From positions 5,005 to 69,004 of the forward strand of contig CAZGEC010000002.1 of assembly GCA_964524645.1 (NCBI GenBank): a DNA stretch of 64,000 nt. The letters are read 5' to 3'. The notes under the pieces are model-generated. The model was not told the origin of the DNA. It did not search any database and saw nothing but the letters and a program-made list of their open reading frames with translations. The stretch comes from an uncultured Fibrobacteraceae bacterium (GTDB lineage Bacteria > Krumholzibacteriota > Krumholzibacteriia > LZORAL124-64-63). The position numbers and the translations under genes are program-made. Positions 2,787 through 62,254 of the stretch are shown here, piece after piece (the first letter of the stretch is position 1; every line of letters begins with the position of its first letter).

Positions 2787-3716
2787 GTGATCGAAGTCGA
2801 GGGCCTACGTAAGCAGTTCGGCGACCTGGCGGCTGTCGACGACGTCAGCTTTATGGCCCGCCCCGGCCGCATCTTCGGCCTGCTCGGCCCCAACGGCGCC
2901 GGCAAGTCCACCACCATCAACTGCATCGCGGGGCTGCTGAAGCCCAGCCGCGGGCGCGTGCGCGTGCTGGGACACGACGTGGTGACCGACGGTCCGGCCT
3001 CGCGACGGCAGCTGGGTGTGGTGCCCCAGGAGCTGGCCCTCTACGAGGATCTCTCGGCCCGCGAGAACCTGGCCTTCTGGGGCGGCGCCTACGGCCTGGG
3101 TGGAGTTCTCCTGAGGAGCCGGGTGGATGCTGTGCTGGAGCTGATCGGCCTCGCCGATCGCGCCCGGGAGCCGGTCAAGAACTACAGCGGGGGCATGAAG
3201 CGGCGGCTCAACTTCGGCTGCGGCCTCGTGCACGAGCCGCAGGTGCTGCTGCTGGACGAGCCCACCGTCGGCGTGGATCCCCAGAGCCGCGTGCGGCTGC
3301 TCGACCTGGTCCGCGAGCAGGCCGGCGCCGGCGTCTGCGTTCTCTACACGACCCACTACATGGAGGAAGCGGAGCATCTCTGCGAGGAGCTGGCCATCAT
3401 CGATCACGGCTGCATCATCGCCCACGGTACGATGCTCGAGCTGCGGGCCATGATGGGCGAGCGGGACCTGGTGCGGCTGACGGGCGAGTTCGATCCCGCC
3501 GCCGCCGGAGCGGCCCTGGGCGAGCTGCCCGGCGTCGAGCTGGTGCAGGTCGAGACCGCGGGCCTGACCCTGGCGGTTCCGGAGGCCTCGGCGCGGCTCT
3601 CGGAGATCTTCCAGGCCCTGGCCGGCGCGGGGGCCCAGATTCGCGGCACCACCCTCACCGAGCCCAACCTGGAGAGCCTGTTCATCAAGCTGACCGGCAA
3701 GGAGCTGCGGGAGTAA
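2787..3716 (+). CDS. ABC transporter ATP-binding protein
   Basis: Walker [10 protein letters not shown], signature YSGGMKRR and Walker B LLLDEPT are present. The start was set to GTG 2787, which follows GGAGG by 6 nt; the track ORF starts at 2424 with a non-homologous extension. Confidence 0.9.
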
Positions 3717-3738
3717 TCCCGCGGCGAGGCGGAGCCCC

Positions 3739-4983
3739 ATGCGCTTCCTCTGGAGCACCACGCTCAAGGACCTGCGCCGGCACCGGCGCAGCCCGGCCGA
3801 ATTCCTGGTCTGGCTCGGCGTCCCCCTGCTCATCGGCAGCCTCATCATCCTGGCCTCCGGAGGACGCAGCGGCCCCGCGCCTCAGGCCCTGGTCTGGGTG
3901 GCTGACCACGACGACAGCTTCGTCAGCAACTTCCTGCTCACGGCTCTGGGCCAGGGAGGGCACGGCAATCCGGTGCGCTCCGAGCTGGTGAGCGAGGAGG
4001 AAGGCCGCTCCAGGCTCGGTCACGGAAAGGGCTCCGCCCTGCTGATCATCCCCGCCGGCTTCGGCGAGGCGGTCCTCCGGGAGCGGCCGGCCACCCTGCA
4101 GCTGCTGACCAATCCCGCCCAGCGCATCCTGCCGGGCATCGTGGAGGAGGAGCTGAGTGTCCTGGTGGATGCCGGCTTCTACCTGCACCGGCTGTTCGGG
4201 GACGAGCTGCGGGCGATGGCCGCAGGTCCGCCAGCCGGCCGCCACGTCTTCGACGACGCCTTCGTCGCCGCCCTGAGCGTGCGGATCAACCGTCTGGTGG
4301 ACCGGCTGGCCGGCAGTCTCTCGCCGCCCCTGATCCAGCTCCGGGTCGAGGCGGTGGAGCAGGAGTCCGAGTTCGACTTCGCGAGCTTCGCTCTCGGCTT
4401 CCTGCCGGGCATACTCTTCATGGGACTGCTGTTCATGGCCCAGGGGCTCGGCGACGAGCTGTGGCACGAACGCCAGCAGCAGACCCTGCGGCGGGTGGTG
4501 GCCTCTCCCCGCAGCGTGCACGTGTTTCTGGCCGGCAAGCTGCTGGCGGGCGTGCTGATGATGGCCTGCATGAGCCTCGTGGGGCTCTGTGCCGGCTACT
4601 GGTACTTCGGCTTGCCCGCATGGACCTTGCCCCTGGCCGGGGCCTGGACGATCTGCACGGGCATCCTGTTCATGACCGGCATGACGGCACTGCAGGTCCA
4701 TGCGGCCAGCCAGCGGGCGGGCAATATCCTGACCATGGTACTGATCTTCCCCCTCATGATGATCGGGGGCAGCTTCTTCCCGTTCGAGGCCATGCCCGCC
4801 TGGATGGCGACGGTGGGGAAGCTCACGCCCAACGGCTGGGCGCTGCGGCGGCTGCGGTCCATCCTGGAGGGAAACGTCGACCTGCCGGTGGTGGCGCTCG
4901 GCTTCATGCTGCTGCTGGGTCTGAGCCTGGTGCTGTTCCTGGTCAGCGCGCGCCGCGTGCGCCGCGCCTTCGTGCAGGGTTGA
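3739..4983 (+). CDS. ABC-2 family transporter permease
   Basis: Polytopic membrane protein with ABC-2 permease topology, immediately downstream of the ATPase. Confidence 0.8.
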   Translation: MRFLWSTTLKDLRRHRRSPAEFLVWLGVPLLIGSLIILASGGRSGPAPQALVWVADHDDSFVSNFLLTALGQGGHGNPVRSELVSEEEGRSRLGHGKGSALLIIPAGFGEAVLRERPATLQLLTNPAQRILPGIVEEELSVLVDAGFYLHRLFGDELRAMAAGPPAGRHVFDDAFVAALSVRINRLVDRLAGSLSPPLIQLRVEAVEQESEFDFASFALGFLPGILFMGLLFMAQGLGDELWHERQQQTLRRVVASPRSVHVFLAGKLLAGVLMMACMSLVGLCAGYWYFGLPAWTLPLAGAWTICTGILFMTGMTALQVHAASQRAGNILTMVLIFPLMMIGGSFFPFEAMPAWMATVGKLTPNGWALRRLRSILEGNVDLPVVALGFMLLLGLSLVLFLVSARRVRRAFVQG

Positions 4984-28266: not shown

Positions 28267-28722
28267 TCAGGTTCTGCGCTGGCGCGGCTGCTTCAGGCTT
28301 CCGGGCGGCAAGATCCAGAGTTCGGTATCTCCCAGCGCGGTGAGCACAGTATCCGCGAGATTGGAGCGGTTCGCCGCCTCCGCTCCTCCGCCGCCCTCAC
28401 CGGACGCGGTGAAACCGACAGGACGGGTGCGGAAGACGGCCCCGTTCTGCAGCACGGCCCGGGTGACCTCCCGCCCGTCGGCGAGGAACTCGCTCACCCG
28501 CAGCTTGCCGCGTCGCACCACCGCGTCGATCGCCGCCGGCGGGTGGAAGAGCTGGGTGGGCACGAGCGATACGATCCGGCGTTCCCGCTCCAGCTCCCGC
28601 AGAAGGTTCCGTTCGGCGGCAAAGAGGCGGGCGTCCCGCACGAAGCTGAACCAGACCTCCGGCGGCGGCAGGGGCCTGTCCAGGTCGTCCAGCTCCGTGC
28701 CACCTCGCTGCTGCTCGCTCAT
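28267..28722 (-). CDS. hypothetical protein, possibly a cNMP-binding-domain fragment
   Basis: RRGKLRVSEFLADGREVTRAVLQNGAVF resembles a cNMP-binding beta-barrel. Start trimmed to the internal Met. Confidence 0.35.
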   Translation of the reverse strand: MSEQQRGGTELDDLDRPLPPPEVWFSFVRDARLFAAERNLLRELERERRIVSLVPTQLFHPPAAIDAVVRRGKLRVSEFLADGREVTRAVLQNGAVFRTRPVGFTASGEGGGGAEAANRSNLADTVLTALGDTELWILPPGSLKQPRQRRT

Positions 28723-28811
28723 GCGCTCCTCGCGCCTCCGGGGTCCGGCGATTCTCGTCCGTCCACGCTGCCGCAGGCACGATACCACAGGCGTCGCGGC
28801 CCTGCCACGCC

Positions 28812-28840
28812 TTGACATTCCGCGCCGGGCCGCCTATGCT
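28812..28840 (+). promoter_or_regulatory. sigma-70 promoter TTGACA-N17-TATGCT driving the TPP riboswitch
   Basis: Read directly. The TSS is ~7 nt before the riboswitch P1. Confidence 0.5.
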
Positions 28841-28848
28841 GGGCCCGT

Positions 28849-28929
28849 CGTTCCGTTAGGGGTGGCTACGGCCTGAGAGAGACCCTCCGAACCTGAACCG
28901 GATCATACCGGCGTAGGGAAACGGGAACG
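28849..28929 (+). ncRNA. TPP (THI-box) riboswitch
   Basis: GGGGUGGC...CUGAGAgagACCCuccGAACCUGAaccGGAUcAUaCCGGCGUAGGGAA matches the THI-box consensus. The P1 stem is CGUUCCGU / ACGGGAACG. Confidence 0.85.
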
Positions 28930-28945
28930 CGAGACTCTCCCTCTG

Positions 28946-28980
28946 CAACCGGCCCCCTCGGAGCCGGTTTTTTCGGCTCC
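28946..28980 (+). terminator. riboswitch expression platform: terminator hairpin AACCGGCC...GGCCGGUU plus U6, with an alternative GGAGCCG...CGGCUCC pairing
   Basis: Read directly. The U-tract is at 28969..28974, and the GGGAGG SD and ATG 29015 follow. Confidence 0.55.
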
Positions 28981-29014
28981 GCCATCGACGACTTCCTTTC
29001 CGGGAGGTCCCGCC

Positions 29015-31519
29015 ATGTCCGCTCCGCAGCGTGCGTCCGGACTGCGCGCGAGTGCGGCGCTCCTGCTCGCCGCGTGTCTGCTGGCCGGCGGCCCGGCGGC
29101 CGCCGGCGAGGTCCTCGGCGGACGCGTCACGGACGCCGAGACCGGTCTGCCGCTCGTCGCGGCCAACGTGTACGTGCAGGGCCGTACGACGGGCACCGTC
29201 AGCACCGCCGGAGGCTACTTCAGCCTCCGCAACCCGCCGTCGCAGCCCTTCACCCTGGTCGTCACCTACGTGGGCTACGCGCCTGCGCTCCTGAAGATCG
29301 ATCCCGCGACCCTCGCTCCGGGGCGGGAGCTGTCAATCGCTCTGCAGCCGGTCGTCTACACCCACGAGGAGATCGTGATCTCGGCCTCGCGCTACGGCTC
29401 GGACCTGCAGCTGACCCACACCAACATTCCCGGCGACGAGATCGAGCGGGAGCGGTCCCTGGTCGACATTCCCGTCCTGCTGGAGAACGTGCCCGGCGTG
29501 TACGCCACCAGCGACGCCGGCAACGGCGTGGGTTACACCTACCTGCAGATCCGCGGCTTCGATCAGCGCCGGATCGGCGTGCTGGTCAACGGCGTGCCCC
29601 TCAACGATCCCGAGGACCAGCAGGTCTACTGGGTCGACCTGCCCGATCTGGCCTCCTCGCTGGAGGACATCCAGGTCCAGCGCGGGGTGACGAACTCCCT
29701 GGGCGGCATGCCGGCGCTGGGCGGGACGGTCAACCTGCAGACCGACGTGCTCCCCGTGGAGCCGGGTGGCCGGATCTCGCTGCAGTACGGCAGCTACAAC
29801 ACCTCGAAGCAGACCCTGCTCTACGACACGGGGCTGCTGGGCGGGAGCTTCGCCTCCGGCCTGCGCGTCACCCATCTGGAGAGCGACGGCTACCGGGACC
29901 GGGCGGGCTCGTCCCAGTGGGCGGTGTTCTGGAGCGGGCGCTACGTGACCCCGCACAGCGCCACCGATCTGTACGTCTGGACCGGCCGCGAGCTGACCCA
30001 GCAGGCCTGGTACGGCATCGACGAGGCGACCCTCGCCCGCGACCGCACGGCCAATCCCGAAACCTACCACAACGCGGTGGACGACTTCCGGCAGCCCCAG
30101 GTCCAGCTGCATCACACCCGGGATCTCTCCGACCGGATCTCGCTGCGCAACACCTTCTTCTGGGTCCACGGCGAGGGCTACTACGAGAACTTCAAGGCGG
30201 ACGCGACGGCCCGGGACTTCAGCCTCGACTATTACCTGGGTCTGGCCCCCGACGCCGAGGTGAACCTGGTGCGGCGCAAGTGGGTGCGCAAGGACCAGGC
30301 GGGCTGGTCGCCCCAGCTTAGGGTGGAGCACGCCGGCGGGCGCCTGCTCGTCGGCGGCGACGCCTACACCTTCCACAGCAACCACTGGGGCGAGGTCCTG
30401 TCGGTCGACGGCTTCACCAGCGACCAGCTGGTGGGTGGCCTGAAGTACCACGATTACACCGGCGACAAGCAGGCCTGGTCGGTCTACCTCAACGATCACT
30501 GCGACGTCGTCGGTGGGCTGACCGCGCTGCTGGATCTGCAGTATCAGTACAGGACCTACGACTTCGCCCAGGACGAGCTGGCCAACTTCCGCGGCCTGGA
30601 GCGGAACGCCTACCGCGTGGAGTACGAGTTCTTCAATCCCAAGGGGGGGCTGCACTGGCGGCTGCCCGGCACGGTGGCCGGCGGCCGGATGGCCCTCTAC
30701 GCCCATGTGGGCATCGGCCGGCGCGAGCCCGCGGACAGCGATCTCTTCGACACCTGGCAGGGTCCGGACGACCTGGGCGCGGCCCCGCTGTTCCGCAACA
30801 GCCGTGTGGTCTACCGGGACGACGGCGTGACCGTCGACCACGTGGAGTGGTCGGATCCCATCGTGCAGGAGGAGAAGGTGGTCGACTGGGAGGCGGGGGC
30901 CACCTACCGCAGCGGATGGCTGTCGGCCACCCTGAACGGCTACTGGATGGACTTCACCGACGAGATCGTCCCCTACGGCACCGTGGACGCGGACGGCTTC
31001 GGCATCCGGGGCAACGCCGGCAAGACCCTGCACCGGGGCGTCGAGCTGGGCCTGAGCTGCCAGCCGGCCGCGGGACACCTGATCAGCCTGGCCGCCTCGC
31101 GCAGCTGGGACGAGTTCGAGCACTTCATCTTCCACGACTGGGACGGGACCGCCCTGGACTACTCGGGCAATCCCCTCCCCCTGTTTCCGCGGCACATGAT
31201 CACGCTCCGCTGGCGTGCGACCTGGGGCGCCCTGCAGACGGAGCTGCGGCTGCGGCGGATCGGCAAGCAGTATCTGGACGACACCGGCAACGAGGAGCGC
31301 ACCATCGCTCCCTACGAGACCGTCGACCTGGCCGGCTGGCTCGACCTGGCGCGGCTGGGCCTCGGCGGCTGGGAGGGAGCGCGCGTGGAGCTGCGCCTGC
31401 GGAATCTGCTGGACGCGGAGTACGAAACCAGCGGATACTTCGATGGCTGGGGGGCCGGTAACTACAAGATTCCTGCTGCCAAGCGCAACTTCCTGCTGGG
31501 CGTGCACTACGATTTCTAG
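29015..31519 (+). CDS. TonB-dependent outer-membrane receptor (carboxypeptidase-regulatory-like N-domain, plug, barrel)
   Basis: Signal peptide is followed by the CarbopepD-like VLGGRVTDAETGLPLVAANVYVQG. The TonB box / plug region is EIVISASRYGSD...IQVQRG, and the C-terminus is ...FLLGVHYDF. Confidence 0.9.
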   Translation: MSAPQRASGLRASAALLLAACLLAGGPAAAGEVLGGRVTDAETGLPLVAANVYVQGRTTGTVSTAGGYFSLRNPPSQPFTLVVTYVGYAPALLKIDPATLAPGRELSIALQPVVYTHEEIVISASRYGSDLQLTHTNIPGDEIERERSLVDIPVLLENVPGVYATSDAGNGVGYTYLQIRGFDQRRIGVLVNGVPLNDPEDQQVYWVDLPDLASSLEDIQVQRGVTNSLGGMPALGGTVNLQTDVLPVEPGGRISLQYGSYNTSKQTLLYDTGLLGGSFASGLRVTHLESDGYRDRAGSSQWAVFWSGRYVTPHSATDLYVWTGRELTQQAWYGIDEATLARDRTANPETYHNAVDDFRQPQVQLHHTRDLSDRISLRNTFFWVHGEGYYENFKADATARDFSLDYYLGLAPDAEVNLVRRKWVRKDQAGWSPQLRVEHAGGRLLVGGDAYTFHSNHWGEVLSVDGFTSDQLVGGLKYHDYTGDKQAWSVYLNDHCDVVGGLTALLDLQYQYRTYDFAQDELANFRGLERNAYRVEYEFFNPKGGLHWRLPGTVAGGRMALYAHVGIGRREPADSDLFDTWQGPDDLGAAPLFRNSRVVYRDDGVTVDHVEWSDPIVQEEKVVDWEAGATYRSGWLSATLNGYWMDFTDEIVPYGTVDADGFGIRGNAGKTLHRGVELGLSCQPAAGHLISLAASRSWDEFEHFIFHDWDGTALDYSGNPLPLFPRHMITLRWRATWGALQTELRLRRIGKQYLDDTGNEERTIAPYETVDLAGWLDLARLGLGGWEGARVELRLRNLLDAEYETSGYFDGWGAGNYKIPAAKRNFLLGVHYDF

Positions 31520-31553
31520 CGCGGGTGCCGGCCGGCACGACCACCGGAGCTGC

Positions 31554-32276
31554 ATGTCCACGCTGGAATCGCGGAGCGGGGGCGGCGAGTTCTGCCCCAT
31601 CTTTCTGAAGGAAGGCCCCCGGGCCGTCGTCCTCTGCGACGGTCCGCCGCCGCCGCCGCCGCTGCTCGACTACTGGCTGCAGGGAGTGGACCTTTTCGTC
31701 TGCACCGATGCCGCCGGTCATCCCTACGACCACCTGCCCCGCCTGCCGGACATCGTCATCGGGGACTTCGACTCGCTGACCGGGCGCATCCTGACCGGGA
31801 AGAACGGCCCGCGCTACCTGCTGGTGAAGGAGCAGGAAACCACCGATTCGGAAAAGGCGCTCCTCTACGTGGTCGAGCAGGGTCTGACCGAGGCGGTCCT
31901 GCTCGGCGCCGCCGGCTGGCGCCTGGACCACACCCTCTTCAACTGCTTCCTGCTGGAACGCTTCGCCGACCGGCTGCGCGTCTGCCTGGCCGGTCACCAG
32001 TCCGACGCCGTGCGCGTCGCCCCGGACCAGCCGGTGGTCTGGCGTCTGGATCCCGGGACCGGCTTCTCCCTCCTGCCCCTGGCTGGAGCGGCCTCCGGCG
32101 TGACGGTGGAGGGGGCACGCTACCCGCTGCGCAACGCCATGATCCGGGCCGGCGGCCCGGCCACCATCTCTAATCGCGTGCTGACCTCCCCCCTGCGGAT
32201 CACCCTGGGCGAAGGTTCGCTCCTGGTGACCGTGGATCGCGGAGGACGACCCGATCTGCTGGGCGATCTCGACTGA
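31554..32276 (+). CDS. thiamine pyrophosphokinase
   Basis: Contains AVVLCDGPPP, VDLFVCTDAAGH and DIVIGDFDSL. It lies in track ORF 31215..32276, with the start at ATG 31554. Confidence 0.75.
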   Translation: MSTLESRSGGGEFCPIFLKEGPRAVVLCDGPPPPPPLLDYWLQGVDLFVCTDAAGHPYDHLPRLPDIVIGDFDSLTGRILTGKNGPRYLLVKEQETTDSEKALLYVVEQGLTEAVLLGAAGWRLDHTLFNCFLLERFADRLRVCLAGHQSDAVRVAPDQPVVWRLDPGTGFSLLPLAGAASGVTVEGARYPLRNAMIRAGGPATISNRVLTSPLRITLGEGSLLVTVDRGGRPDLLGDLD

Positions 32277-32278
32277 TC

Positions 32279-33664
32279 ATGCTCCTGGCCGCGGTCTACA
32301 TCCTCTTCCTCGTCTACGTGGTGCTGCGTCTCTTCCGCCGGCCTACGGGGAATGCCGCGGACTACCTCGTGGTCGGCCGGCGCCTGACCCTGCCCGCCTT
32401 CGTGGCGACGCTCGTTGCCACCTGGTACGGGGGCATCCTCGGCGTGGGGGAATACGCCTGGCGCTACGGCGTGAGCAACTGGCTGGTCTTCGGGGTGCCT
32501 TATTACATCGCGGCGGGCATCTTCGGCCTGTTCCTGGCCGGCCGCATCCGGCGCAGCCAGGTCCTGACCATTCCCGACCAGCTGGAGCGCCGGTACGGGC
32601 GGGGCACCGCGCTGCTGGGCGCTGGGGTGCTCTTCGTCATGACCGCCCCGTCGGCCTACGTGCTGATGCTCGGGGTGCTGGTCCGCCTGGCCACGGGCTG
32701 GCCGCTCTGGGTGGGAGTGGCCCTCGGGACCGCGCTCTCGGTGGGCTACGTCTTCCGCGGCGGGCTGCGGGCCATCATCACCACCGACATGGTGCAGTTC
32801 GGCCTGATGTTCCTGGCCTTCCTGGTGCTGGTGCCGACCTGCATCGCGCGCTACGGAGGCTGGGAGTTCCTGAAGGGAGCGGTGCCACCGAGCCACCTGA
32901 CCTGGGATGGGGGCCGGGGCTTCCAGGCGGTGGCGGTCTGGTACGTCATCGCTTTGGCGACGCTGGTGGAGCCGGCCTTCTACCAGCGGTGCTACGCCGC
33001 CTCCAGCGAGCGGACGGCGCGGGCCGGCGTCGGGATCTCCATCCTCTTCTGGATCTTCTTCGACTTCCTGACCACGACGGCCGGCCTCTACGCCCGCGCG
33101 GTGCTGCCGGACCTGGCCGATCCCGTGGCGGCCTTTCCGGCCCTGGCCGAACGGACGCTGGCCCCCGTCTGGCAGGGTCTGTTCACCGTGGGGTTGCTGG
33201 CCGCCATCATGTCCACCGTGGACAGCTACGCCTTCATCTGCGGCATCACCGTGGGCCGGGACATCGTGCAACGCTGGCGGGCTCCGCGCGGAGCGAGCCC
33301 CGGCACCGGCCTGCTGGCGGAGGACGCCATCTCGCTGCGACCGATCCGCTGGGGATTGCTGGCCACGGCGGTCCTGGCGGTCGTGTTGGCCCTCTGGGCC
33401 GGCTCGGTGGTGCGGCTGTGGCACGATCTGGGCAGCATCGGGACGCCGGTCCTCCTGCTGCCCCTGGCGCTGGGCCACGGCCGGGCCGCACCGCGCGGCC
33501 GCTGGGTCCCGGCCGCCATGGCCCTCTCCGGGGGCACCGCCCTCGCCTGGCTGCTGCTGGGCGCGGGCCGGCCCTTCCTGGGGGTGGAGTCCATCTTCCC
33601 GGGCCTGGCCGTCTCCCTGCTGGTGCTGCTGCCGGGATGGTTCCGGGGGCGGACGGCCGCCTGA
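32279..33664 (+). CDS. sodium:solute symporter (SSF) family transporter
   Basis: 13-TM protein with SSF N-terminal blocks (YLVVGRRLTLPAFVATLVATWYGGILGVGEYAW). It starts 3 bp after the TPK stop. Confidence 0.8.
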   Translation: MLLAAVYILFLVYVVLRLFRRPTGNAADYLVVGRRLTLPAFVATLVATWYGGILGVGEYAWRYGVSNWLVFGVPYYIAAGIFGLFLAGRIRRSQVLTIPDQLERRYGRGTALLGAGVLFVMTAPSAYVLMLGVLVRLATGWPLWVGVALGTALSVGYVFRGGLRAIITTDMVQFGLMFLAFLVLVPTCIARYGGWEFLKGAVPPSHLTWDGGRGFQAVAVWYVIALATLVEPAFYQRCYAASSERTARAGVGISILFWIFFDFLTTTAGLYARAVLPDLADPVAAFPALAERTLAPVWQGLFTVGLLAAIMSTVDSYAFICGITVGRDIVQRWRAPRGASPGTGLLAEDAISLRPIRWGLLATAVLAVVLALWAGSVVRLWHDLGSIGTPVLLLPLALGHGRAAPRGRWVPAAMALSGGTALAWLLLGAGRPFLGVESIFPGLAVSLLVLLPGWFRGRTAA

Positions 33665-33690
33665 GAGGGGCTGGTCCGCCGACGAACGAA

Positions 33691-33716
33691 GGCCCCGATC
33701 CCGGGGGATCGGGGCC
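33691..33716. terminator. GC hairpin GGCCCCGATCCC-gg-GGGATCGGGGCC between the convergent SSF and htrA genes
   Basis: The perfect inverted repeat was read directly. Confidence 0.5.
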
Positions 33717-33743
33717 GGTCGTCCGTCGCGTCAGGGGCGGCGG

Positions 33744-35261
33744 TCAAGGAACCTGGATCGCCGTGAAGAAGGTGACCTGTCCGCGGCGCACCAGCAGGGC
33801 CGCGGATTCCCCGCTCTTGAGCCGGGACACGACCTTGTTGAACTCGTCCACCGACGTGATCTCGGTGCGATTCACTTCCTGGATGAGATCGCCACGCTGC
33901 AGGCCCGCATCCTCACCCGCCGATCCCGCCGCCACGTCCGCCACCAGCGCGCCCTGCTGATTCTCGTAGCCCAGCTGCTGGGCCAGAGCGGGCGTCAGGC
34001 TCTGGATGGTCAGGCCGAGCTTCTCCTGCATCTGGGGTTGCTGCTGCGGGGACTGCTGCTCGCCGGCCTTGGCGTTCTCCGGACGCTCGCCCAGCTTCAC
34101 GTCGATCGTCAGCTCCTTGCCGTTGCGCAGCACGGTCAGCTTGACCGTCGAGCCGGGCTGCATCATGGCGACCTTCTCCCGCAGCTCGACGCTGTCCTTG
34201 ATCTTCTCCCCGTTCAGCTCGGTGAGGACGTCGCCGCGCTGCACGCCGGCCTTGCCGGCCGGTCCGTCCGGCACGACGTCGCCCACCAGGCAGCCCGAGG
34301 TCGTCTTCAGGTTCAGGGCCGCCGCCAGGCTCTCGTTGATGTCCTGCGGAACGAGCCCGAGGTAGCCGCGCGTGACCTTGCCGTGGGAGATCAGGTCTTC
34401 CATGACGGTCTTGGCCATGTTGATGGGAATCGCGAAGCCGATGCCGACGTTCCCGCCCGACGGGGTGGAGATGGCGGTGTTGATGCCGATGACGTTGCCG
34501 TCCAGATCGGCGAGGGCCCCGCCGCTGTTGCCGGGATTGATGGAGGCATCGGTCTGGATGAAGTCCTCGTAGTCGGCCAGGCCCACCGAGGAGCGACCCT
34601 CGGCGCTGATGATGCCCGCGGTGACGGTGTGCAACAGCTGGAACGGGTTGCCCACGGCGATGACCCACTCGCCGATCTTCAGCTCGTCCGAGTTGCCCAG
34701 CGTGGCGGCGGGAAGATCGTCGCCCTCGATCTTGATGACGGCCAGATCCGTCTGCGGATCCGTGCCGACGATCTTGGCGGAGTACTTCTCGTTCTTCTGC
34801 AGGAGAACCGTCAGCTTGTCGGCCCCATGCACCACGTGGTTGTTGGTCAGGATGTATCCGTCCTTGCTCACGATCACGCCGCTGCCGAGGCTGTGCACGG
34901 TCTCCTTTTGATCCTGCTGGGGAACCGTGCCGAAGAAGCGCTTGAAGAAGTCGTCGCCGAAGAACTGACGGAAGGGGCTGTCCGGCGAGCCGAAGGGGCT
35001 GGCCACCTCCACCACCTGCTCGGCGTAGATGGGGATGACCGAGGGGCTGACCTTGCTCGCCGCGGCCTCGAAGACGGCGCTGAGCTGGTTGGCCAGGGTA
35101 CGGCCCTCGCTCGTGGCGGCCAGCGAGGATTGAGCTTTGGCACTGTCCTGCCGCGTGCAGGCGGGCACGAGAGCCAGTCCCGTGACCGCGGCCACCGCCA
35201 GCGCCAACCCCATGGTCGTGATGCGGCGATGATGACGAAGGCTACTCTTCACTCGAAGCAT
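33744..35261 (-). CDS. htrA: DegP/HtrA (Do-family) serine protease with two PDZ domains
   Basis: Contains GSGVIVSKDGYILTNNHVV, DLAVIKI and INPGNSGGAL, plus two PDZ regions. The start is at Met (MLRVKSS...) 35261, with AGGAGG upstream. Confidence 0.9.
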   Translation of the reverse strand: MLRVKSSLRHHRRITTMGLALAVAAVTGLALVPACTRQDSAKAQSSLAATSEGRTLANQLSAVFEAAASKVSPSVIPIYAEQVVEVASPFGSPDSPFRQFFGDDFFKRFFGTVPQQDQKETVHSLGSGVIVSKDGYILTNNHVVHGADKLTVLLQKNEKYSAKIVGTDPQTDLAVIKIEGDDLPAATLGNSDELKIGEWVIAVGNPFQLLHTVTAGIISAEGRSSVGLADYEDFIQTDASINPGNSGGALADLDGNVIGINTAISTPSGGNVGIGFAIPINMAKTVMEDLISHGKVTRGYLGLVPQDINESLAAALNLKTTSGCLVGDVVPDGPAGKAGVQRGDVLTELNGEKIKDSVELREKVAMMQPGSTVKLTVLRNGKELTIDVKLGERPENAKAGEQQSPQQQPQMQEKLGLTIQSLTPALAQQLGYENQQGALVADVAAGSAGEDAGLQRGDLIQEVNRTEITSVDEFNKVVSRLKSGESAALLVRRGQVTFFTAIQVP

Positions 35262-37504: not shown

Positions 37505-38470
37505 TCAGGTTCCGCAGAAGAGAGTGCGGCCCAGGCGGATCATCCTGTCCTCGAGGTCCCGGGAGGGAACGTCGTAGCTCCAGAAGAGACGGCTGCGGTC
37601 CGTCTGGCGGCCGGTCCAGTCGGGCGGCATCCGCTCCTCGAGGCCGGCGCCTTCCTGCGTGACGAGGAAGGCGAAATCGGCGTCCGGATGACCCGTCAGA
37701 GCCGCCTCCGCATGGACCAGGGGTACGTCGCCCAGGCTGAAGAGGCTGAGCTGATCGCCGCGGATCGCCGCGAGCCAGCTCCGCGGGGTACTGGCCGCGC
37801 GCGAGCCGGCGCCCGGTTCCTCCTGCCTCGCTCCCAGGATCATCAGCTCCAGCGGTTTGCAGTGCAAATCCTGGACGGAGCCCGGCGCCTCCCCGGTCCG
37901 GCCCGGCCGCCCCTCGAGGTCGACCAGCTCGAGCCGGCCCTCCGGGCACGGCCCGCCGACGGTGAAGGGATGCGTATCCAGGCGGCGAATCCGTACGTCA
38001 GCGAACCCGCGGGCCACGTGGTCGAAGCTTCCGCTCAGCAGGTCGGGCAGAGACGGCTCGCCAGCGGTGCCGGAGCCGTCCAGCCACCGGTTTACGGCGG
38101 CCAGCAGGCGGAACTCGGGCGTCCGCTGGAAATCCTCGGCCTCCTGCAGGTCGGTGGCGACGTCCTCCCGCCCTGCGGGAGTCGACAGCAGCGCCTGGGC
38201 CAGCCAGCGGCAATCGTCGTAGGCGGCGTAGAGCGCGTCGCTGCCCTCCGGCGCCAGCACGTGCGCGTTGAAGACCAGCTGACCGGCCTGATCCACCGCC
38301 TCCTCCACCAGCGCCACGACATACTGGCGGTCGAAGATGTAGTCGCCGCCGGACTTCTCGGCGCCGTCCCGGGCCAGGTCCATGAGCCTGCGCGCATTCT
38401 CGAGCAGCCTGCGGAAGCGGACGATCCACAGGCGCAGGTCCTCGACGGCTTGCTGTCTTTTCGAGAACAT
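37505..38470 (-). CDS. hypothetical protein, first gene downstream of a sigma-54 promoter
   Basis: Begins MFSKRQQAVEDLRLWIVRFRRLLENARRLMDL..., starting 18-25 nt downstream of the sigma-54 motif. No family assigned. Confidence 0.45.
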   Translation of the reverse strand: MFSKRQQAVEDLRLWIVRFRRLLENARRLMDLARDGAEKSGGDYIFDRQYVVALVEEAVDQAGQLVFNAHVLAPEGSDALYAAYDDCRWLAQALLSTPAGREDVATDLQEAEDFQRTPEFRLLAAVNRWLDGSGTAGEPSLPDLLSGSFDHVARGFADVRIRRLDTHPFTVGGPCPEGRLELVDLEGRPGRTGEAPGSVQDLHCKPLELMILGARQEEPGAGSRAASTPRSWLAAIRGDQLSLFSLGDVPLVHAEAALTGHPDADFAFLVTQEGAGLEERMPPDWTGRQTDRSRLFWSYDVPSRDLEDRMIRLGRTLFCGT

Positions 38471-38498
38471 CTCGGCCCCCTGGCGATGTCGCGTTCGT

Positions 38499-38514
38499 TG
38501 CAAGTTTCCCGCCA
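38499..38514 (-). promoter_or_regulatory. sigma-54 promoter TGGCGGG-N4-TTGCA (-24/-12)
   Basis: Minus-strand read gives ...ACTGGCGGGAAACTTGCAACGAACGCGACATCGCCAGGGGGCCGAGATG, with exact GG-N10-GC spacing. It is divergent from the NtrC-family activator gene. Confidence 0.6.
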
Positions 38515-38721
38515 GTCCCCGCCGCCCGCTCCGGAAGGTCGCCGGCCCGCGCAAGCGAGGCCCAATCCACGAGCTGGCCTCCTTCTCCATCCCGGGAGCC
38601 GCCCGCAGCCCGGCGGTCCGCCGGCGCCCGGCGGAGCGGTTCGCTGTTGCATATCGCATCAGTACCTGTAGATTTGTGCGGGAGGGACGGGAAGGCCGCT
38701 GGAACCCGGGAGAACGCCCGC

Positions 38722-40065
38722 ATGAATCGAATTCTGGTCGTCGAGGACGATCGGATCACCCTGAAGAACCTGCGCAATATCCTGCGCAAGGAGGGACACG
38801 AGGTCGAGACGGCCGGCGGCGGCGAGGAGGCCTTCCGGTTGCTGGAGGCGAAGCCCTGCGATCTCGTGCTCACGGATCTCGTGATGGAGCCGGTCGACGG
38901 CCTGGCGGTGCTGACGCGGGCCAGGGAGCGGGATCCGGAGACGCAGGTGATCGTCATGACCGGCCACGCCTCGGTCTCCACCGCCATCGAAGCGATGAAG
39001 CGCGGCGCCTTCCACTACCTGCAGAAGCCCTTCCAGCCGGAAGAGGTCCGGCACCTCGTCGCCCTGGCGCTGGAGAAGCGGCGGCTCAGGACGGAGGTCG
39101 CCGACCTCAAGCAGCAGGTCGAGGCCGGGCCGCAGCGCATCCTGGGTCACAGCCCGAAGATCGTCGCCATCCGGCGCCTGATCCGGCAGGTGGCCGAGAC
39201 GGATTCGAACGTGATGATCACCGGCGGGTCGGGCACGGGCAAGGAGCTGGTGGCCTCGGCCATTCACCGGCTGAGCCGGCGTTCCGCCAGGAAGTTCCTG
39301 CCCATCAACTGCGCCTCCTTCACCGAGGACCTGCTGGCCAACGAGCTGTTCGGCCACGAGAAGGACGCCTTCACGGGAGCCACGACCACCCGGACGGGGC
39401 TGCTGGAGGCGGCGGACGGGGGGACGATCTTCTTCGACGAGGTCGGCGACATGCCCCCAGTCATGCAGGCGAAGCTGCTGCGGGTGGTCCAGGAGCGGGA
39501 GCTGATCCGCGTGGGCGGCTCCCGGCCCATTCGGATCGACGTGCGGATCATCTCGGCCACGAACAAGAACCTGCGGCTCGCCCTGCAGCACGGGAACTTC
39601 CGCGAGGATCTCTACTACCGCCTCAACGTCGTGCCCATCGACATGCCGACCCTGGCCGAGCGCAAGGAAGACATCCCCTTGCTGGTCAAGCACTTCCTGA
39701 ATCGATTCAATCGCCGGGCCCAGGCGCGGATCCTCGGCTTCACCGGCGAGGCGCTCCAGCTGCTGGGCTCGTACGATTATCCCGGCAACGTCCGCGAGCT
39801 GGAGAACATCGTCGAGCGGGCGGCTTCCCTGAGCCGCTCCGAGGTGATCGGCGTGGAGGCCCTGCCCGAGGATCTCCAGGAGCTGGAGGTCTACGCGCTG
39901 CGCCGGGGTCAGTCCCGCATCAAGACGCTGGAGGAGATGGAGCAGGAGTACATCCGGGACGTGCTGGCCCGCTGCAACCACAACAAGAGCCGGGCCGCCG
40001 AGGCGCTCGGCATCAACCGCGTCTCCCTGTACCGCAAGCTGAAGCGGACGCAGATCACCGAGTGA
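38722..40065 (+). CDS. sigma-54-dependent response regulator (REC, AAA+ and HTH domains; NtrC/Fis family)
   Basis: The receiver domain has the phospho-acceptor Asp [14 protein letters not shown]+ motifs are [14 protein letters not shown] and ESELFGHEK-like ([13 protein letters not shown]). The C-terminal HTH is [21 protein letters not shown]. Confidence 0.9.
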
Positions 40066-55087: not shown

Positions 55088-56779
55088 CTAGCGGATCAGA
55101 CCGAGCTTGCAGGCCGGGCCGACCGCCCGCCCGTCCAGCAGGAGGCGGCCGCAGTAGACGCCGCTCGGCAGCTCGCGGCCCGCGGCGTCCCGGCCCTCCC
55201 AGGTGATTCCCTGCTCGCCCGCCGGCCGCTCTCCGCCTTCCAGGCGTGCGACGAGCCGCCCGCGCGCGTCGTACAGCCGCAGGCTCACCTCTCCCGGACG
55301 GGCCAGGACGAAGCGGATCTCCGTGCGCGGGTTGAAGGGATTGGGCCGCCCGCCCAGCAGGGTCGCGGTCCAGGCGCTGCGATCGGTCTGTGCGGGAGTC
55401 CGGGCGTTCGCCACGTTCGAGAGGGCCGAGACGTGGCCCGGCTCGCCGTAGGCGCCCCACTCGTCGAGCACCCGGAGGGCGAAGTAGTAGCGCATACCAG
55501 GCTCCAAGCCGCTCGCCCGTGCCTTCTGCCAGCTCCCGGGTGCGCCAGGCGGCGGTACATCGCTCACCGGCGTGGCCGTGGCGAAGCTGGACGCATCGAG
55601 TGGCTCGGTGGCCCGGCGGAGATCGTAGGCCGCTGCCCTGCCCTCGGTGCCGTCGTCGCCCGTGGCCGTCCAGCGGAGCAGCAGCGTGGTGCTGTCGGCA
55701 TCGTAGACCGCGAGATCGAGCACGGGTGCGGGTGGAATGCTGTCCGGTTCCGCGAGGGCCCGGAAGGCGTCGAGCCGGCCGCCCGTGATCACCAGGCCCG
55801 CCAGCTCGGGCGTCGCAACGGTGCCGGCAAGGATGCGGGCCTTGACCGCTCCGGCGTCGAGCGCCGGGAAGCGCCCCCGCACCAGAGCGGCCACGCCGGC
55901 CACCATGGGCGTGGCAAACGAGGTGCCCAAGACGTAGTCGAAGCCGCCGCTGCCCGCCGGCACCAGGATGCGCACCCCCGGTGCGGCCAGATGCACGCTC
56001 TCGTCGCCGTAGTTGAAGATCTGCTGGCCGTCGGGTTTCAGACCGGTCACGCAGATGATGTTGGGCAGGTCGTAGCAGCACGGGTACTCCGGCGCGGCGT
56101 CCACGTCCCGGCCGTCGTTTCCCGCGGAGCAAACGATCAAGAGATCGTGCTCCAGGGCGTAGAGGCAGGCCGCGTAAAGGTCGTCGAGATAGTGCTGGGG
56201 GGCGGAGTACGGGATGTCCCAGCTGACGTTGATGACCTCGGCGCCCGCGTCGGCCGCCGCGTAGATGGTCAGGATCCGCGAATCGATGAGTGACGAGCTG
56301 CGCACCGGCAGCAGCGAGACCTCCCAGTTGATGCCGGTCATGCCAAGCCCGTTGTGGCCGACGGCGCCGATGATGCCCGCGATGGCCGTGCCGTGATGGA
56401 CGCTCTTGGGGGTGGGCTCGTTCGCCAGCTCGTAGCCCTTCCCGCCGCGGAGGGGAGGAATGACGATCGCCGGCAGCAGGTTGGCGGCCAGGTCCGGGTG
56501 CCCGGCGAGATCGAAGTCGCTGTCGCTGATCGCCACGATGACGGAGCGCGAGCCCGTCGAGACGTTCCAGGCGGCCGGGGCCGCGATGTCGATGCCGGCG
56601 ATCGCCGGCAAAGGGCCGGCGTTGTCCCCGGTGTTCTGCAGCGACCACTGGTCGGGAAAGCGGGGATCGTCCGGCAGGATGGCCGGAGCCAGCGCGGCGA
56701 TGGCGAGCAGGACGGCCGCAGGGATCGCCAGGAGCCGCCGCCGGGCGGTCGAAACGGATACGCGTCGAGAAGCCATCAC
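55088..56779 (-). CDS. S8 (subtilisin-like) serine peptidase with a T9SS C-terminal sorting domain
   Basis: The His motif is HGTAIAGIIGA and the Ser motif is GTSFATPMVAGVAAL. A signal peptide is present. The CTD is NPFNPRTEIRF...LYDARGRLVARL...SGVYCGRL. Confidence 0.85.
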   Translation of the reverse strand: MMASRRVSVSTARRRLLAIPAAVLLAIAALAPAILPDDPRFPDQWSLQNTGDNAGPLPAIAGIDIAAPAAWNVSTGSRSVIVAISDSDFDLAGHPDLAANLLPAIVIPPLRGGKGYELANEPTPKSVHHGTAIAGIIGAVGHNGLGMTGINWEVSLLPVRSSSLIDSRILTIYAAADAGAEVINVSWDIPYSAPQHYLDDLYAACLYALEHDLLIVCSAGNDGRDVDAAPEYPCCYDLPNIICVTGLKPDGQQIFNYGDESVHLAAPGVRILVPAGSGGFDYVLGTSFATPMVAGVAALVRGRFPALDAGAVKARILAGTVATPELAGLVITGGRLDAFRALAEPDSIPPAPVLDLAVYDADSTTLLLRWTATGDDGTEGRAAAYDLRRATEPLDASSFATATPVSDVPPPGAPGSWQKARASGLEPGMRYYFALRVLDEWGAYGEPGHVSALSNVANARTPAQTDRSAWTATLLGGRPNPFNPRTEIRFVLARPGEVSLRLYDARGRLVARLEGGERPAGEQGITWEGRDAAGRELPSGVYCGRLLLDGRAVGPACKLGLIR

Positions 56780-56944
56780 TGCCCTCCTTGTGGTTGTGCC
56801 CCACGATTCTAACGGCCGCGTGGTGCCGATACAAGCTGCTCGCGGTGCCGCTCACGGACCACCGTGGCGCCGGCGGTTCAGGTGTGCGATCCTTGGTGGG
56901 GGAATCCGGCGGTGCGCAAGGCGCCGGATCGCCGGGAGGAGCCC

Positions 56945-62163: not shown

Positions 62164-62254
62164 GTCCTTGTCTCCTGTCTCGTGACCGGGACGGTGCGTG
62201 GGCTCTACGCTCCGTCCGGATTCCACCACCTGAGACGCCGCGGCCGCTCCGAGG

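What the first reader, a model, noticed from the sequence alone, without database searches (positions are those of the whole stretch)
32279..33664. SSF-family symporter as a candidate non-canonical inner-membrane thiamine (or thiamine-precursor) transporter
The SSF gene is translationally coupled (3-bp gap) to the thiamine pyrophosphokinase gene and lies downstream of a TPP-riboswitch-controlled TonB receptor. No PnuT, ThiT or ThiBPQ homologue is present in the operon. Guilt by association suggests this SSF member imports thiamine or HMP/thiazole for salvage by TPK. That substrate would be unusual for the SSF family.
Basis: inference. Interest (0 to 1): 0.55.

Follow-up and report, generated by a model that had tools for sequence, protein, structure and literature searches.

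The report
Riboswitch-controlled sodium symporter for thiamine uptake
This membrane protein is very probably the inner-membrane vitamin B1 importer of a riboswitch-controlled thiamine-scavenging operon; the idea is sound, but the same kind of locus and the wider concept were already described, so it is a well-supported, untested prediction, not a surprise.

Summary
On the + strand lie a TPP riboswitch (28848-28936), a TonB-dependent receptor (29015-31519), thiamine pyrophosphokinase (31554-32276) and an SSF symporter (32279-33664). The TPK stop and SSF start are 2 nt apart, not 3.

The guilt-by-association reading survives testing. Of 66 related loci from other genomes, 47 carry a TPP riboswitch upstream on the same strand; that is 47 of about 55 loci with enough upstream sequence. 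Three gene orders occur, and in one the riboswitch sits directly before the SSF gene. TPK abuts the SSF gene in 36 loci and lies about 1 kb upstream in two more; three of these 38 have no riboswitch.

The protein has a confident SSF/LeuT-type fold, conserved Na2 and Na3 sodium-site residues, and three of the six aromatic residues around choline in the choline transporter CHT1. This fits a cationic substrate such as intact thiamine.

It is not new as an idea. SSF-type "ThiV/SSSP" thiamine/HMP transporters have been predicted since 2002. A riboswitch-TonB receptor-symporter-TPK locus was reported in Caldithrix abyssi in 2017. This clade is not orthologous to ThiV, has no thiamine-related name among the ~280 homologues listed, and no member was found to have been tested.

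Verdict: new member of a known kind. Interest is moderate to low.

The parts
28812..28840 (+). Sigma-70-like promoter (TTGACA, 17-nt spacer, TATGCT) ending 8 nt before the riboswitch aptamer
   Evidence: the only promoter-like site in 28600-33900, against 0.1 expected from shuffles. This is a consensus match only.
28848..28936 (+). TPP riboswitch aptamer (THI element)
   Evidence: RF00059, 71.3 bits against a gathering score of 54.3, E = 4.7e-12, full-length model match.
28947..28975 (+). Candidate expression platform: hairpin AACCGGCCC-CCUC-GGAGCCGGUU whose stem runs into a six-U tract (terminator-like). The minimum-free-energy fold uses an overlapping alternative hairpin (28959-28981).
   Evidence: Sequence and fold. 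My own reading of the pairing. The tool's terminator scan did not list it and the fold z-score is not significant, so the mechanism is inferred.
28990..29009 (+). Hairpin GACUUCCU-UUCC-GGGAGGUC that pairs the Shine-Dalgarno GGGAGG of the receptor gene (ATG at 29015)
   Evidence: minimum-free-energy structure and sequence. Any regulatory role is inferred.
29015..31519 (+). TonB-dependent outer-membrane receptor (834 aa; CarboxypepD_reg + Plug + barrel), the thiamine-regulated Omr1/OMthi-type receptor
   Evidence: domains; below every substrate-specific NCBIfam cut-off; identical to a public gene call. Receptors matching it are linked to the SSF gene in at least 51 of 66 loci, and the three checked by Pfam have the same domains.
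31554..32276 (+). Thiamine pyrophosphokinase (240 aa)
   Evidence: TIGR01378, 109 bits against a cut-off of 76. TPK_catalytic and TPK_B1_binding domains; exact public gene call of 240 aa.
32279..33664 (+). SSF-family (TC 2.A.21) secondary transporter, 461 aa; predicted Na+:thiamine symporter. Start codon lies 2 nt after the TPK stop.
   Evidence: for the protein; for the conserved linkage.
33691..33716 (.). Perfect 12-bp inverted repeat (GGCCCCGATCCC / GGGATCGGGGCC) between the convergent SSF and htrA genes; likely operon end and possibly a bidirectional terminator hairpin
   Evidence: There is no U-tract, so function is inferred.

Best explanation
The gene encodes the cytoplasmic-membrane step of a three-gene, TPP-riboswitch-repressed thiamine-scavenging operon.

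1. When cellular TPP is low, the leader lets the operon be expressed.
2. The TonB-dependent receptor brings thiamine across the outer membrane.
3. The SSF protein carries thiamine across the inner membrane. It uses the sodium gradient and the thiazolium cation is the recognised form.
4. The tightly coupled TPK converts thiamine to TPP, which traps it and feeds back on the riboswitch.

The SSF protein takes the place that PnuT holds in the Bacteroides OMthi-pnuT-tnr3 operon.

**Shown here:** the parts, their order, and the conserved linkage across phyla. Also shown: the SSF fold, conservation of the sodium-site residues, and non-orthology to ThiV, PanF and PutP.

**Inferred:** the substrate, the direction of transport, the Na+ stoichiometry and the riboswitch mechanism.
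For: **1. Riboswitch linkage.**
- 47 of 66 homologous loci have a TPP riboswitch upstream on the same strand (regex; Rfam; summary).
- 11 further loci are cut by contig ends, and only 8 evaluable loci lack one.
- Three architectures occur: riboswitch>receptor>TPK>SSF (28 loci), riboswitch>receptor>SSF (11 loci, counting L062), and riboswitch>SSF>receptor (7 loci). One further locus (L044) is cut just after riboswitch>SSF.
- In these last two groups (mostly Eisenbacteria) the riboswitch core starts 85-215 nt before the SSF match. The SSF gene stays in the regulon when the gene order changes.

**2. TPK linkage.**
- TPK abuts the SSF gene in 36 loci and lies about 1 kb upstream in two more.
- Three of these 38 have no riboswitch: L056 (adjacent), L059 and L060 (about 1 kb upstream). 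Their TPKs score 130, 102 and 110 bits against a cut-off of 76.
- The TPK stop to SSF start spacing is -4 to +3 nt in 27 of 34 loci.
- TPK acts on free thiamine (established enzymology). No HMP or thiazole salvage gene turned up among the neighbours examined; only a subset was annotated.

**3. The protein is a functional-looking SSF transporter.**
- PF00474 scores 90 bits.
- The AlphaFold model has pLDDT 91.8 and pTM 0.90, with TM1 unwound at Y50-G52 and TM6 broken at E231/P232.
- Foldseek TM-scores are 0.82-0.85 to SGLT2 and CHT1.
- Na2 residues S312/T313 and Na3 residues D170, D315 and S316 align with CHT1 S346/S347, D188, D349 and S350. Alignment. Residue roles: PMC11589582.

**4. Hints for a cationic substrate.**
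- CHT transporters are the closest solved relatives of the clade profile: sfCHT E = 4e-22, human CHT1 E = 1.5e-16.
- Invariant W49, Y75 and W381 align with the choline-contacting aromatic residues W62, Y91 and W406 of CHT1. W62 and Y91 form the cation-pi cage; W406 lines the site (PMC11589582, PMC13220886).
- The clade also has its own invariant Y50, E58, Y76, Y127, W258, F261 and D262.

**5. Literature.**
- The same locus type in Caldithrix abyssi was read as candidate thiamine transport in a predicted thiamine auxotroph (PMC5317091).
- A Calditrichaeota homologue (51% identical to the window protein) shows riboswitch>receptor>SSF.
Against: - No experiment exists for any member that I could find.
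- The rest of the genome is not visible, so thiamine auxotrophy and the absence of PnuT, ThiT or ThiBPQ elsewhere are unknown.
- 11 loci have no adjacent TPK, and one of them (L039) has a riboswitch-controlled ThiL next door instead. That does not fit a simple thiamine-to-TPK route.
- Only 3 of the 6 CHT1 choline-site aromatic residues are conserved.
- Among characterised references, PanF (102 bits) and OpuE (97 bits) score higher with the clade profile than sfCHT (82 bits). The "cation" argument therefore rests on a few aligned residues.
- The known riboswitch-linked SSF protein ThiV is thought to carry the uncharged precursor HMP.
Confidence: 0.65

Rival explanations
1. It imports a thiamine precursor or breakdown product (HMP, AmMP/FAMP, or a thiazole moiety) and not intact thiamine, as proposed for SAR11 ThiV.
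For: TPP-riboswitch control does not distinguish thiamine from precursors. ThiV/SSSP, the best-studied riboswitch-linked SSF, is assigned to HMP uptake (PMC11452348, PMC4260697). 11 loci lack an adjacent TPK.
Against: - The conserved partner is TPK, which needs intact thiamine.
- No thiD, thiE, thiM or tenA turned up among the neighbours examined. ThiV/SSSP, by contrast, clusters with such genes (PMC4260697, PMC10881298).
- The clade is not orthologous to ThiV: 18.6% identity, and 56 bits against 102 for PanF.
- Conserved cation-pi-type aromatics and acidic residues fit a cation better than neutral HMP.
Confidence: 0.15
2. It imports phosphorylated thiamine (TMP), which is then completed by ThiL or dephosphorylated.
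For: In L039 a separate TPP riboswitch controls thiL (TIGR01379, 295 bits against a cut-off of 184) immediately upstream of riboswitch>receptor>SSF, and there is no TPK.
Against: This is one locus only. In 38 loci the partner is TPK, which does not use TMP. ThiL is also needed after de novo or ThiE-based synthesis, so its presence is not specific to TMP import.
Confidence: 0.05
3. It carries an unrelated solute (for example proline, pantothenate, choline or another osmolyte) and sits in the operon for reasons unrelated to thiamine.
For: The nearest characterised sequences are PanF, OpuE, PutP and CHT. Eight evaluable family members have no riboswitch.
Against: - Linkage to a TPP riboswitch holds in about 85% of evaluable loci across several candidate phyla and three gene orders. 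That is hard to explain without a thiamine role.
- Three of the riboswitch-less loci still have TPK beside or near the SSF gene.
- Scores are far below the PanF and PutP cut-offs.
- The CHT chloride-site loop VGGGY is shortened and W141 and W254 are not conserved.
Confidence: 0.07

Closest known systems
Caldithrix abyssi locus Cabys_3975-3977 (Kublanov et al. 2017, PMC5317091)
   Same: [quoted passage not shown] It was interpreted as candidate thiamine transport in a predicted thiamine auxotroph. A Calditrichaeota MAG homologue, 51% identical to the window protein, has riboswitch>receptor>SSF.
   Different: Different phylum; the window's closest relatives are labelled Krumholzibacteriota. The Caldithrix protein itself could not be retrieved, so orthology is inferred, not tested. 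The paper mentions the symporter in one sentence, with no family analysis and no experiment.
ThiV / SSSP (Rodionov 2002; SAR11_0811; algal SSSP/SSSQ)
   Same: SSF-family protein under a TPP riboswitch, predicted to import thiamine or HMP (PMC4260697, PMC6593275, PMC11452348). It shares the Na2 Ser/Thr and the Na3 Asp in TM8 (ISTVDT in ThiV, MSTVDS here).
   Different: Not orthologous: 18.6% identity. The clade profile scores ThiV at 56 bits, below PanF (102), OpuE (97) and PutP (80), and finds no hit to SSSP, SSSQ or SSSF. ThiV clusters with biosynthesis and salvage genes (thiE, thiM, thiD, thiG, tenA) and is assigned to HMP. This clade clusters with a TonB receptor and TPK.
Bacteroides OMthi (Omr1)-PnuT-Tnr3(TPK) thiamine uptake operon
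   Same: Same logic and same outer parts: TPP riboswitch, TonB-dependent outer-membrane receptor, inner-membrane carrier, and thiamine pyrophosphokinase for trapping (bioRxiv 10.1101/867226; PMC6593275 supplement).
   Different: The inner-membrane carrier there is PnuT, a PnuC-family facilitator. Here it is an unrelated Na+-coupled SSF protein, a non-orthologous replacement that would allow active accumulation.
High-affinity choline transporters CHT1 (SLC5A7) and bacterial sfCHT
   Same: Closest solved relatives of the clade profile (E = 4e-22 and 1.5e-16). Shared residues: W49=W62, Y75=Y91, W381=W406, R34=R47, the Na2 site S312/T313, and the Na3 site D170/D315/S316.
   Different: About 18% identity. 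The VGGGY chloride-site loop is two residues shorter here. W141 and W254 are not conserved. Several clade-specific invariant residues are present. There is no link to choline metabolism.
PanF (Na+/pantothenate) and PutP/OpuE (Na+/proline)
   Same: Highest-scoring characterised SSF sequences, at 24-26% identity. PanF is also a vitamin transporter.
   Different: Scores of 67 and 55 bits against equivalog cut-offs of 328 and 515. PutP has D55 at the position of W49 and has no residue aligned to Y75. The genomic context is different.

Membership tests
Sodium:solute symporter family (Pfam PF00474, TC 2.A.21) | Significant match to the family profile | tested here: met
   PF00474 scores 90.2 bits against a cut-off of 22.8. 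The TIGR00813 superfamily model scores 87 bits, below its 184 cut-off.
Sodium:solute symporter family (Pfam PF00474, TC 2.A.21) | LeuT-type fold with unwound TM1 and TM6 | tested here: met
   The AlphaFold model has pLDDT 91.8 and pTM 0.90, with helix breaks at 50-52 and 231. Foldseek TM-scores are 0.82-0.85 to SGLT2 and CHT1, with all top hits in SLC5/SSS.
Sodium:solute symporter family (Pfam PF00474, TC 2.A.21) | Na2-site Ser/Thr pair in TM8 (PutP S340/T341; CHT1 S346/S347) | tested here: met
   S312/T313 are invariant in 44 clade sequences and align to the Na2 residues. The Na3-type D170, D315 and S316 are also conserved.
Sodium:solute symporter family (Pfam PF00474, TC 2.A.21) | Na+-dependent solute transport | not testable with these tools
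   Needs uptake assays.
ThiV / SSSP (riboswitch-linked SSF thiamine/HMP transporter) | Orthology to SAR11_0811 / M. flagellatus ThiV / algal SSSP | tested here: not met
   18.6% identity. The clade HMM gives ThiV 56 bits, below PanF, OpuE and PutP, and finds no hit to SSSP or SSSQ. The neighbour-joining grouping next to ThiV/SSSP sits on very long branches.
ThiV / SSSP (riboswitch-linked SSF thiamine/HMP transporter) | TPP riboswitch upstream | tested here: met
   Window. 47 of 66 related loci.
ThiV / SSSP (riboswitch-linked SSF thiamine/HMP transporter) | Clustering with thiamine biosynthesis or precursor-salvage genes (thiD/E/M/G, tenA) | tested here: not met
   The neighbours are a TonB receptor and TPK. 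One ThiL was found in L039. No thiD/E/M or tenA turned up among the neighbours examined, which were only a subset.
PanF (TIGR02119) / PutP (TIGR02121) | Score above the curated equivalog cut-off | tested here: not met
   PanF 67.3 bits against 328; PutP 55.3 bits against 515.5.
CHT (SLC5A7) choline transporters | Six choline-surrounding aromatic residues W62, Y67, Y91, W141, W254, W406, plus the VGGGY chloride loop | tested here: not met
   Only W62, Y91 and W406 have equivalents (W49, Y75, W381). The loop is two residues shorter. W141 aligns to A123 and the W254 segment differs.
FCB-type TPP-riboswitch thiamine-scavenging operon (Omr1/OMthi + inner-membrane carrier + TPK) | TPP riboswitch, then TonB-dependent receptor, with TPK in one transcription unit | tested here: met
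   The intergenic gaps are 34 and 2 nt, all genes are on the + strand, and a single promoter-like site lies before the aptamer.
FCB-type TPP-riboswitch thiamine-scavenging operon (Omr1/OMthi + inner-membrane carrier + TPK) | Inner-membrane carrier is PnuT (PnuC family) | tested here: not met
   The carrier gene matches SSF only. No PnuC-family hit appeared among the 46 window ORFs scanned.
Caldithrix-type locus (riboswitch + TonB receptor + SSS + TPK) | All four components in one locus | tested here: met
   the locus description is in PMC5317091.
Caldithrix-type locus (riboswitch + TonB receptor + SSS + TPK) | Symporter orthologous to the Cabys_3975-3977 symporter | tested here: inconclusive
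   The Caldithrix abyssi protein was not recovered by name. A Calditrichaeota MAG homologue (P0161, 51% identity) with riboswitch>receptor>SSF supports orthology indirectly.

The most novel reading that the evidence does not exclude
This is a second SSF lineage, separate from ThiV/SSSP, that was recruited to vitamin B1 uptake.

- It would be a Na+-coupled symporter of intact thiamine that recognises the thiazolium cation, with a CHT-like aromatic pocket plus clade-specific acidic residues.
- It has replaced PnuT as the inner-membrane partner of the thiamine TonB receptor in Krumholzibacteriota, Eisenbacteria, Zixibacteria, KSB1, Calditrichota, Ignavibacteria and Marinimicrobia.
- It has thousands of members, none named or tested, all annotated only as generic "sodium:solute symporter".
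Probability: 0.5. Interest if true: 0.5.

Novelty: new member of a known kind. Interest (0 to 1): 0.35.

Why it matters
Thiamine is a traded and often limiting vitamin in microbial communities. Genome-based auxotrophy and uptake predictions depend on recognising the transporters.

This clade is large. More than 4,000 90%-identity clusters passed E <= 1e-20 in one search. It sits in poorly known, mostly uncultivated FCB-group phyla. None of the roughly 280 homologues listed carries a thiamine-related name.

If the clade were confirmed and named, vitamin B1 uptake could be called in these lineages. It would also give a Na+-driven, structurally tractable thiamine carrier to compare with PnuT, ThiT and ThiV.

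It does not change a concept. Riboswitch-linked SSF transporters and riboswitch-controlled receptor/TPK operons are established predictions.

Tried and rejected
1. **ThiV orthology.** I extracted SAR11 ThiV, SSSP, SSSQ, SSSF, PanF, PutP, OpuE and SiaT from the supplement of PMC11452348. BLAST, phmmer, a neighbour-joining tree and a clade HMM all say the window protein is not ThiV-like. The tree places the clade beside ThiV/SSSP, but on very long branches and against the score ranking. I do not trust that placement.

2. **D315 as a substrate-binding acid.** I first took D315 in the MSTxDS motif for a residue shared with ThiV that binds substrate. The CHT1 structures show the equivalent D349 belongs to the Na3 sodium site, so I dropped the idea.

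3. **A ThiL in the window.** The AIR-synthase-like gene at 1427-2431 looked like ThiL. NCBIfam says SelD: 345 bits, against 92 for ThiL, which is below the ThiL cut-off.

4. **Caldithrix abyssi symporter.** Two further homologue searches aimed to recover it by name. Only a Calditrichaeota MAG protein was found.

5. **Source contig.** An exact look-up of the window protein returned nothing. The cluster look-up gave only generic names.

6. **Leader fold.** The fold of the leader is no more stable than shuffled sequence (z = -0.07). The tool's terminator scan missed the bulged hairpin. The regulatory mechanism therefore remains open.

7. **Rodionov 2002.** The paper is not held in the library. 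What it says about ThiV is taken from later papers that cite it.

8. **Fold search.** Foldseek could not separate CHT1 from SGLT2 as the nearest fold.
Full report
**1. What is in the window**

The 64-kb window is 69.6% G+C. Its single Rfam hit is a full-length TPP riboswitch aptamer at 28848-28936 (+), at 71.3 bits against a gathering score of 54.3 and E = 4.7e-12.

A sigma-70-like promoter (TTGACA, 17 nt, TATGCT) ends 8 nt upstream of it. It is the only such site in 28600-33900, against 0.1 expected.

Downstream of the aptamer the sequence can form two structures:
- a bulged hairpin whose stem runs into a six-U tract (28947-28975);
- a hairpin that pairs the Shine-Dalgarno GGGAGG of the first gene (28990-29009).

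Which of these responds to TPP is not resolved. The fold is no more stable than shuffled sequence.

Three + strand genes follow:
- **TonB-dependent receptor**, 29015-31519, with CarboxypepD_reg, Plug and barrel domains.
- **Thiamine pyrophosphokinase**, 31554-32276. TIGR01378 scores 109 bits against a cut-off of 76. The 240-aa product equals a public gene call.
- **SSF gene**, 32279-33664. PF00474 scores 90 bits. The 461-aa product is identical to public entries.

The TPK stop (TGA, 32274-32276) and the SSF ATG (32279) are separated by 2 nt, not 3.

A perfect 12-bp inverted repeat (33691-33716) lies between the SSF stop and a convergent HtrA-type protease gene. The transcription unit therefore holds exactly these three genes.

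Pfam scans of 46 likely genes across the window found no PnuC/PnuT, ThiT, thiamine ABC component or thiamine biosynthesis gene. An AIR-synthase-like gene at 1427-2431 is SelD, not ThiL.

**2. Is the association more than a local accident?**

A scan of one genome per species returned 66 loci encoding relatives of the SSF protein, at 34-76% identity. They come from MAGs labelled Krumholzibacteriota, Eisenbacteria, Zixibacteria, KSB1, Zhuqueibacterota, Ignavibacteria, Kryptoniota, Marinimicrobia and Elusimicrobia, among others.

I located TPP riboswitches in three steps:
- A motif regex also recovers the window's own riboswitch and found 35 loci.
- Rfam was then run on the regex-negative loci that had enough upstream sequence. 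It added 12 loci, all at 64-74 bits.
- Receptors and TPKs were located with phmmer, using the window proteins as queries.

The result is summarised, with L062 resolved:

| Architecture | Loci |
|---|---|
| riboswitch > receptor > TPK > SSF (the window's type) | 28 |
| riboswitch > receptor > SSF | 11 |
| riboswitch > SSF > receptor | 7 |
| riboswitch > SSF, then cut by a contig end | 1 |
| **Total with an upstream, same-strand TPP riboswitch** | **47** |

Of the other 19 loci, 11 end inside or just before the receptor or TPK gene and cannot be judged. Eight have enough upstream sequence and no riboswitch. That gives roughly 47 of 55 evaluable loci, or 85%.

In the riboswitch>SSF>receptor group and in the cut locus L044 (mostly Eisenbacteria) the riboswitch core starts 85-215 nt before the SSF match. 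The SSF gene is then the first regulated gene.

TPK abuts the SSF gene in 36 loci and lies about 1 kb upstream in two more (L059, L060). Three of these 38 have no riboswitch: L056, L059 and L060, with TPK scores of 130, 102 and 110 bits.

In the 34 loci where both gene ends could be read, the TPK stop to SSF start spacing was as follows:
- a 4-nt overlap in 9 loci;
- 1 nt in 13 loci;
- 2-3 nt in 5 loci.

Several of the larger apparent gaps have an alternative ATG right after the stop. Tight coupling is thus a conserved trait, not a quirk of this window.

A Calditrichaeota homologue (P0161, 51% identical to the window protein) also shows riboswitch core, receptor and SSF in that order.

**3. 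What kind of SSF protein is it?**

*Position in the family.*
- The protein scores far below the NCBIfam equivalog cut-offs for PanF (67 against 328 bits) and PutP (55 against 515 bits).
- In an alignment with reference sequences taken from the supplement of PMC11452348, it is 24-26% identical to PutP, OpuE and PanF. It is 18.6% identical to SAR11 ThiV and 17-19% identical to SSSP, SSSQ and SiaT.
- The 60 full-length clade members form one group in a neighbour-joining tree.
- A clade HMM scores the references as follows: PanF 102 bits, OpuE 97, PutP 80 and 67, ThiV 56, SiaT 16. SSSP, SSSQ and SSSF give no hit.
- McRose et al. state that Rodionov's original ThiV of Methylobacillus flagellatus is an SSSP (PMC4260697).

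This clade is therefore a different SSF lineage from ThiV.

*Structure.*
- Against solved structures, the clade profile hits choline transporters best: bacterial sfCHT 9rws at E = 4e-22 and human CHT1 at E = 1.5e-16. SGLT1, SMVT and vSGLT follow.
- An AlphaFold model built on 44 sequences is confident, with pLDDT 91.8 and pTM 0.90.
- The model shows the LeuT-type hallmarks: TM1 unwound at Y50-G52 and TM6 broken at E231/P232.
- Foldseek gives TM-scores of 0.82-0.85 to SGLT2 and CHT1.

*Residue mapping.* I used the HMM alignment and the CHT papers.
- **Na2 site:** S312/T313 correspond to CHT1 S346/S347.
- **Na3 site:** D170, D315 and S316 correspond to D188, D349 and S350.
- **Exit-gate arginine:** R34 corresponds to R47.
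- **Choline-site aromatics:** W49, Y75 and W381 correspond to W62, Y91 and W406. All three are invariant in the clade.
- **Not conserved:** Y67 (the VGGGY loop is two residues shorter here), W141 and W254.
- **Clade-specific invariant residues:** Y50, E58, Y76, Y127, W258, F261, D262, T266 and Y271.

I read this as a sodium-coupled carrier, probably with two Na+ sites, whose pocket suits an organic cation larger than choline. That fits thiamine's thiazolium ring. It is an inference from a few aligned positions. By overall score PanF and OpuE are at least as close as CHT.

**4. Most likely mechanism**

- Low TPP allows expression of the operon.
- The receptor takes thiamine across the outer membrane.
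- The SSF protein takes it across the inner membrane on the sodium gradient.
- The translationally coupled TPK makes TPP, which traps the vitamin and shuts the riboswitch.

The layout mirrors the Bacteroides OMthi-pnuT-tnr3 operon (bioRxiv 10.1101/867226), with an SSF protein in PnuT's place.

I put about 0.65 on intact thiamine and about 0.85 on "thiamine or a closely related compound".

The main rival is precursor uptake, as proposed for ThiV. It is weakened by the constant partnership with TPK and by finding no thiD, thiE, thiM or tenA among the neighbours examined. One locus, L039, has a riboswitch-controlled ThiL beside the receptor-SSF pair instead of TPK. This keeps a small TMP-related possibility open.

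**5. Comparison with what is known, and novelty**

- ThiV is described as "homologous to the Na+/pantothenate symporter gene panF" and regulated by THI elements (PMC2211319, citing Rodionov 2002).
- SAR11 cells, whose only candidate HMP transporter is ThiV, show measured high-affinity HMP uptake (PMC11452348).

More to the point, the Caldithrix abyssi genome paper reports a TPP riboswitch 163 nt upstream of a TonB-dependent receptor. [quoted passage not shown] The authors count thiamine among the transporters they could annotate from riboswitches (PMC5317091).

The window is therefore a new instance of a locus type that has already been noticed.

What the analysis here adds:
- The symporter belongs to a large, coherent clade.
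- The clade is distinct from ThiV.
- Its riboswitch, receptor and TPK linkage holds across many candidate phyla and three gene orders.
- It keeps both sodium sites and part of a CHT-like aromatic pocket.

None of the roughly 280 homologues listed in three searches carries a thiamine-related name.

I could not retrieve the Caldithrix protein itself, so orthology to the published locus is inferred.

**6. Verdict**

- **Observation:** confirmed, with a 2-nt gap.
- **Interpretation:** functionally well supported. Its claim of unusualness is not.
- **Novelty:** new member of a known kind.
- **Interest:** 0.35. This is a solid annotation improvement and a good candidate for a simple transport experiment. 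It would not surprise a specialist in thiamine comparative genomics.

Noticed in passing
L052:4198-4442: Two TPP riboswitch aptamers in tandem (4198-4288 at 67.9 bits; 4348-4442 at 73.5 bits), directly upstream of the receptor-SSF pair in a MAG labelled Ignavibacteriales. Tandem arrangements can sharpen the dose response.
   Followed up: no
L039:3025-8326: A first TPP riboswitch (3025-3122) precedes thiL (3146-4159; TIGR01379 at 295 bits). A second riboswitch (4198-4294) precedes receptor-SSF. There is no TPK in this locus. This hints that some lineages finish TPP synthesis through TMP.
   Followed up: partly
L038, L041, L043, L050, L051, L054, L063: In MAGs mostly labelled Eisenbacteria the gene order is inverted (riboswitch>SSF>receptor) and no TPK is adjacent. 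The riboswitch core starts 85-215 nt before the SSF match.
   Followed up: partly
L056:6003-8064; L059:4919-8278; L060:2262-5133: These family members have no detectable riboswitch but still sit beside or near a bona fide TPK (adjacent in L056; about 1 kb away in L059 and L060). L059 (Elusimicrobia) has lost the MST...D sodium-site motif (STLAATAST), so coupling may differ there.
   Followed up: partly
window:28947-29009: The leader has mutually exclusive hairpins around the U-tract (28947-28975 against 28959-28981), plus a hairpin that buries the receptor gene's Shine-Dalgarno sequence. Control could be transcriptional, translational or both.
   Followed up: partly
window:20362-26580 (-) and 55088-56851 (-): Three secreted proteins carry FlgD_ig and/or Por_Secre_tail (type IX secretion) C-terminal domains. 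They are a gingipain-like C25 peptidase (about 1268 aa), a 692-aa protein, and an S8 subtilase. This fits an FCB-group, protein-degrading organism.
   Followed up: no
window:1427-2431 (-): Selenide, water dikinase SelD (TIGR00476, 345 bits). This implies use of selenocysteine or selenouridine.
   Followed up: no
window:56813-60136 (+): A radical-SAM activating enzyme followed by a pyruvate formate-lyase-like glycyl-radical enzyme (PFL-like at 714 bits). This indicates anaerobic metabolism.
   Followed up: no
window:47674-55082 (+): Two very large overlapping ORFs with PD-(D/E)XK nuclease and UvrD helicase domains, which look like an AddAB-type helicase-nuclease pair. Gene boundaries were not checked.
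   Followed up: no
window:12832-14631 (+), 37505-38755 (-), 61078-62310 (-): Long, high-GC3 ORFs (about 599, 384-416 and 410 aa) with no Pfam match at E <= 1e-5.
   Followed up: no
window:31579-31598 (+): The only site found by the terminator scan lies inside the 5' end of the TPK coding region (GGGGCGGCGAGTTCTGCCCC followed by ATCTTTCTGA). It is within the chance expectation of 1.2 per region.
   Followed up: no
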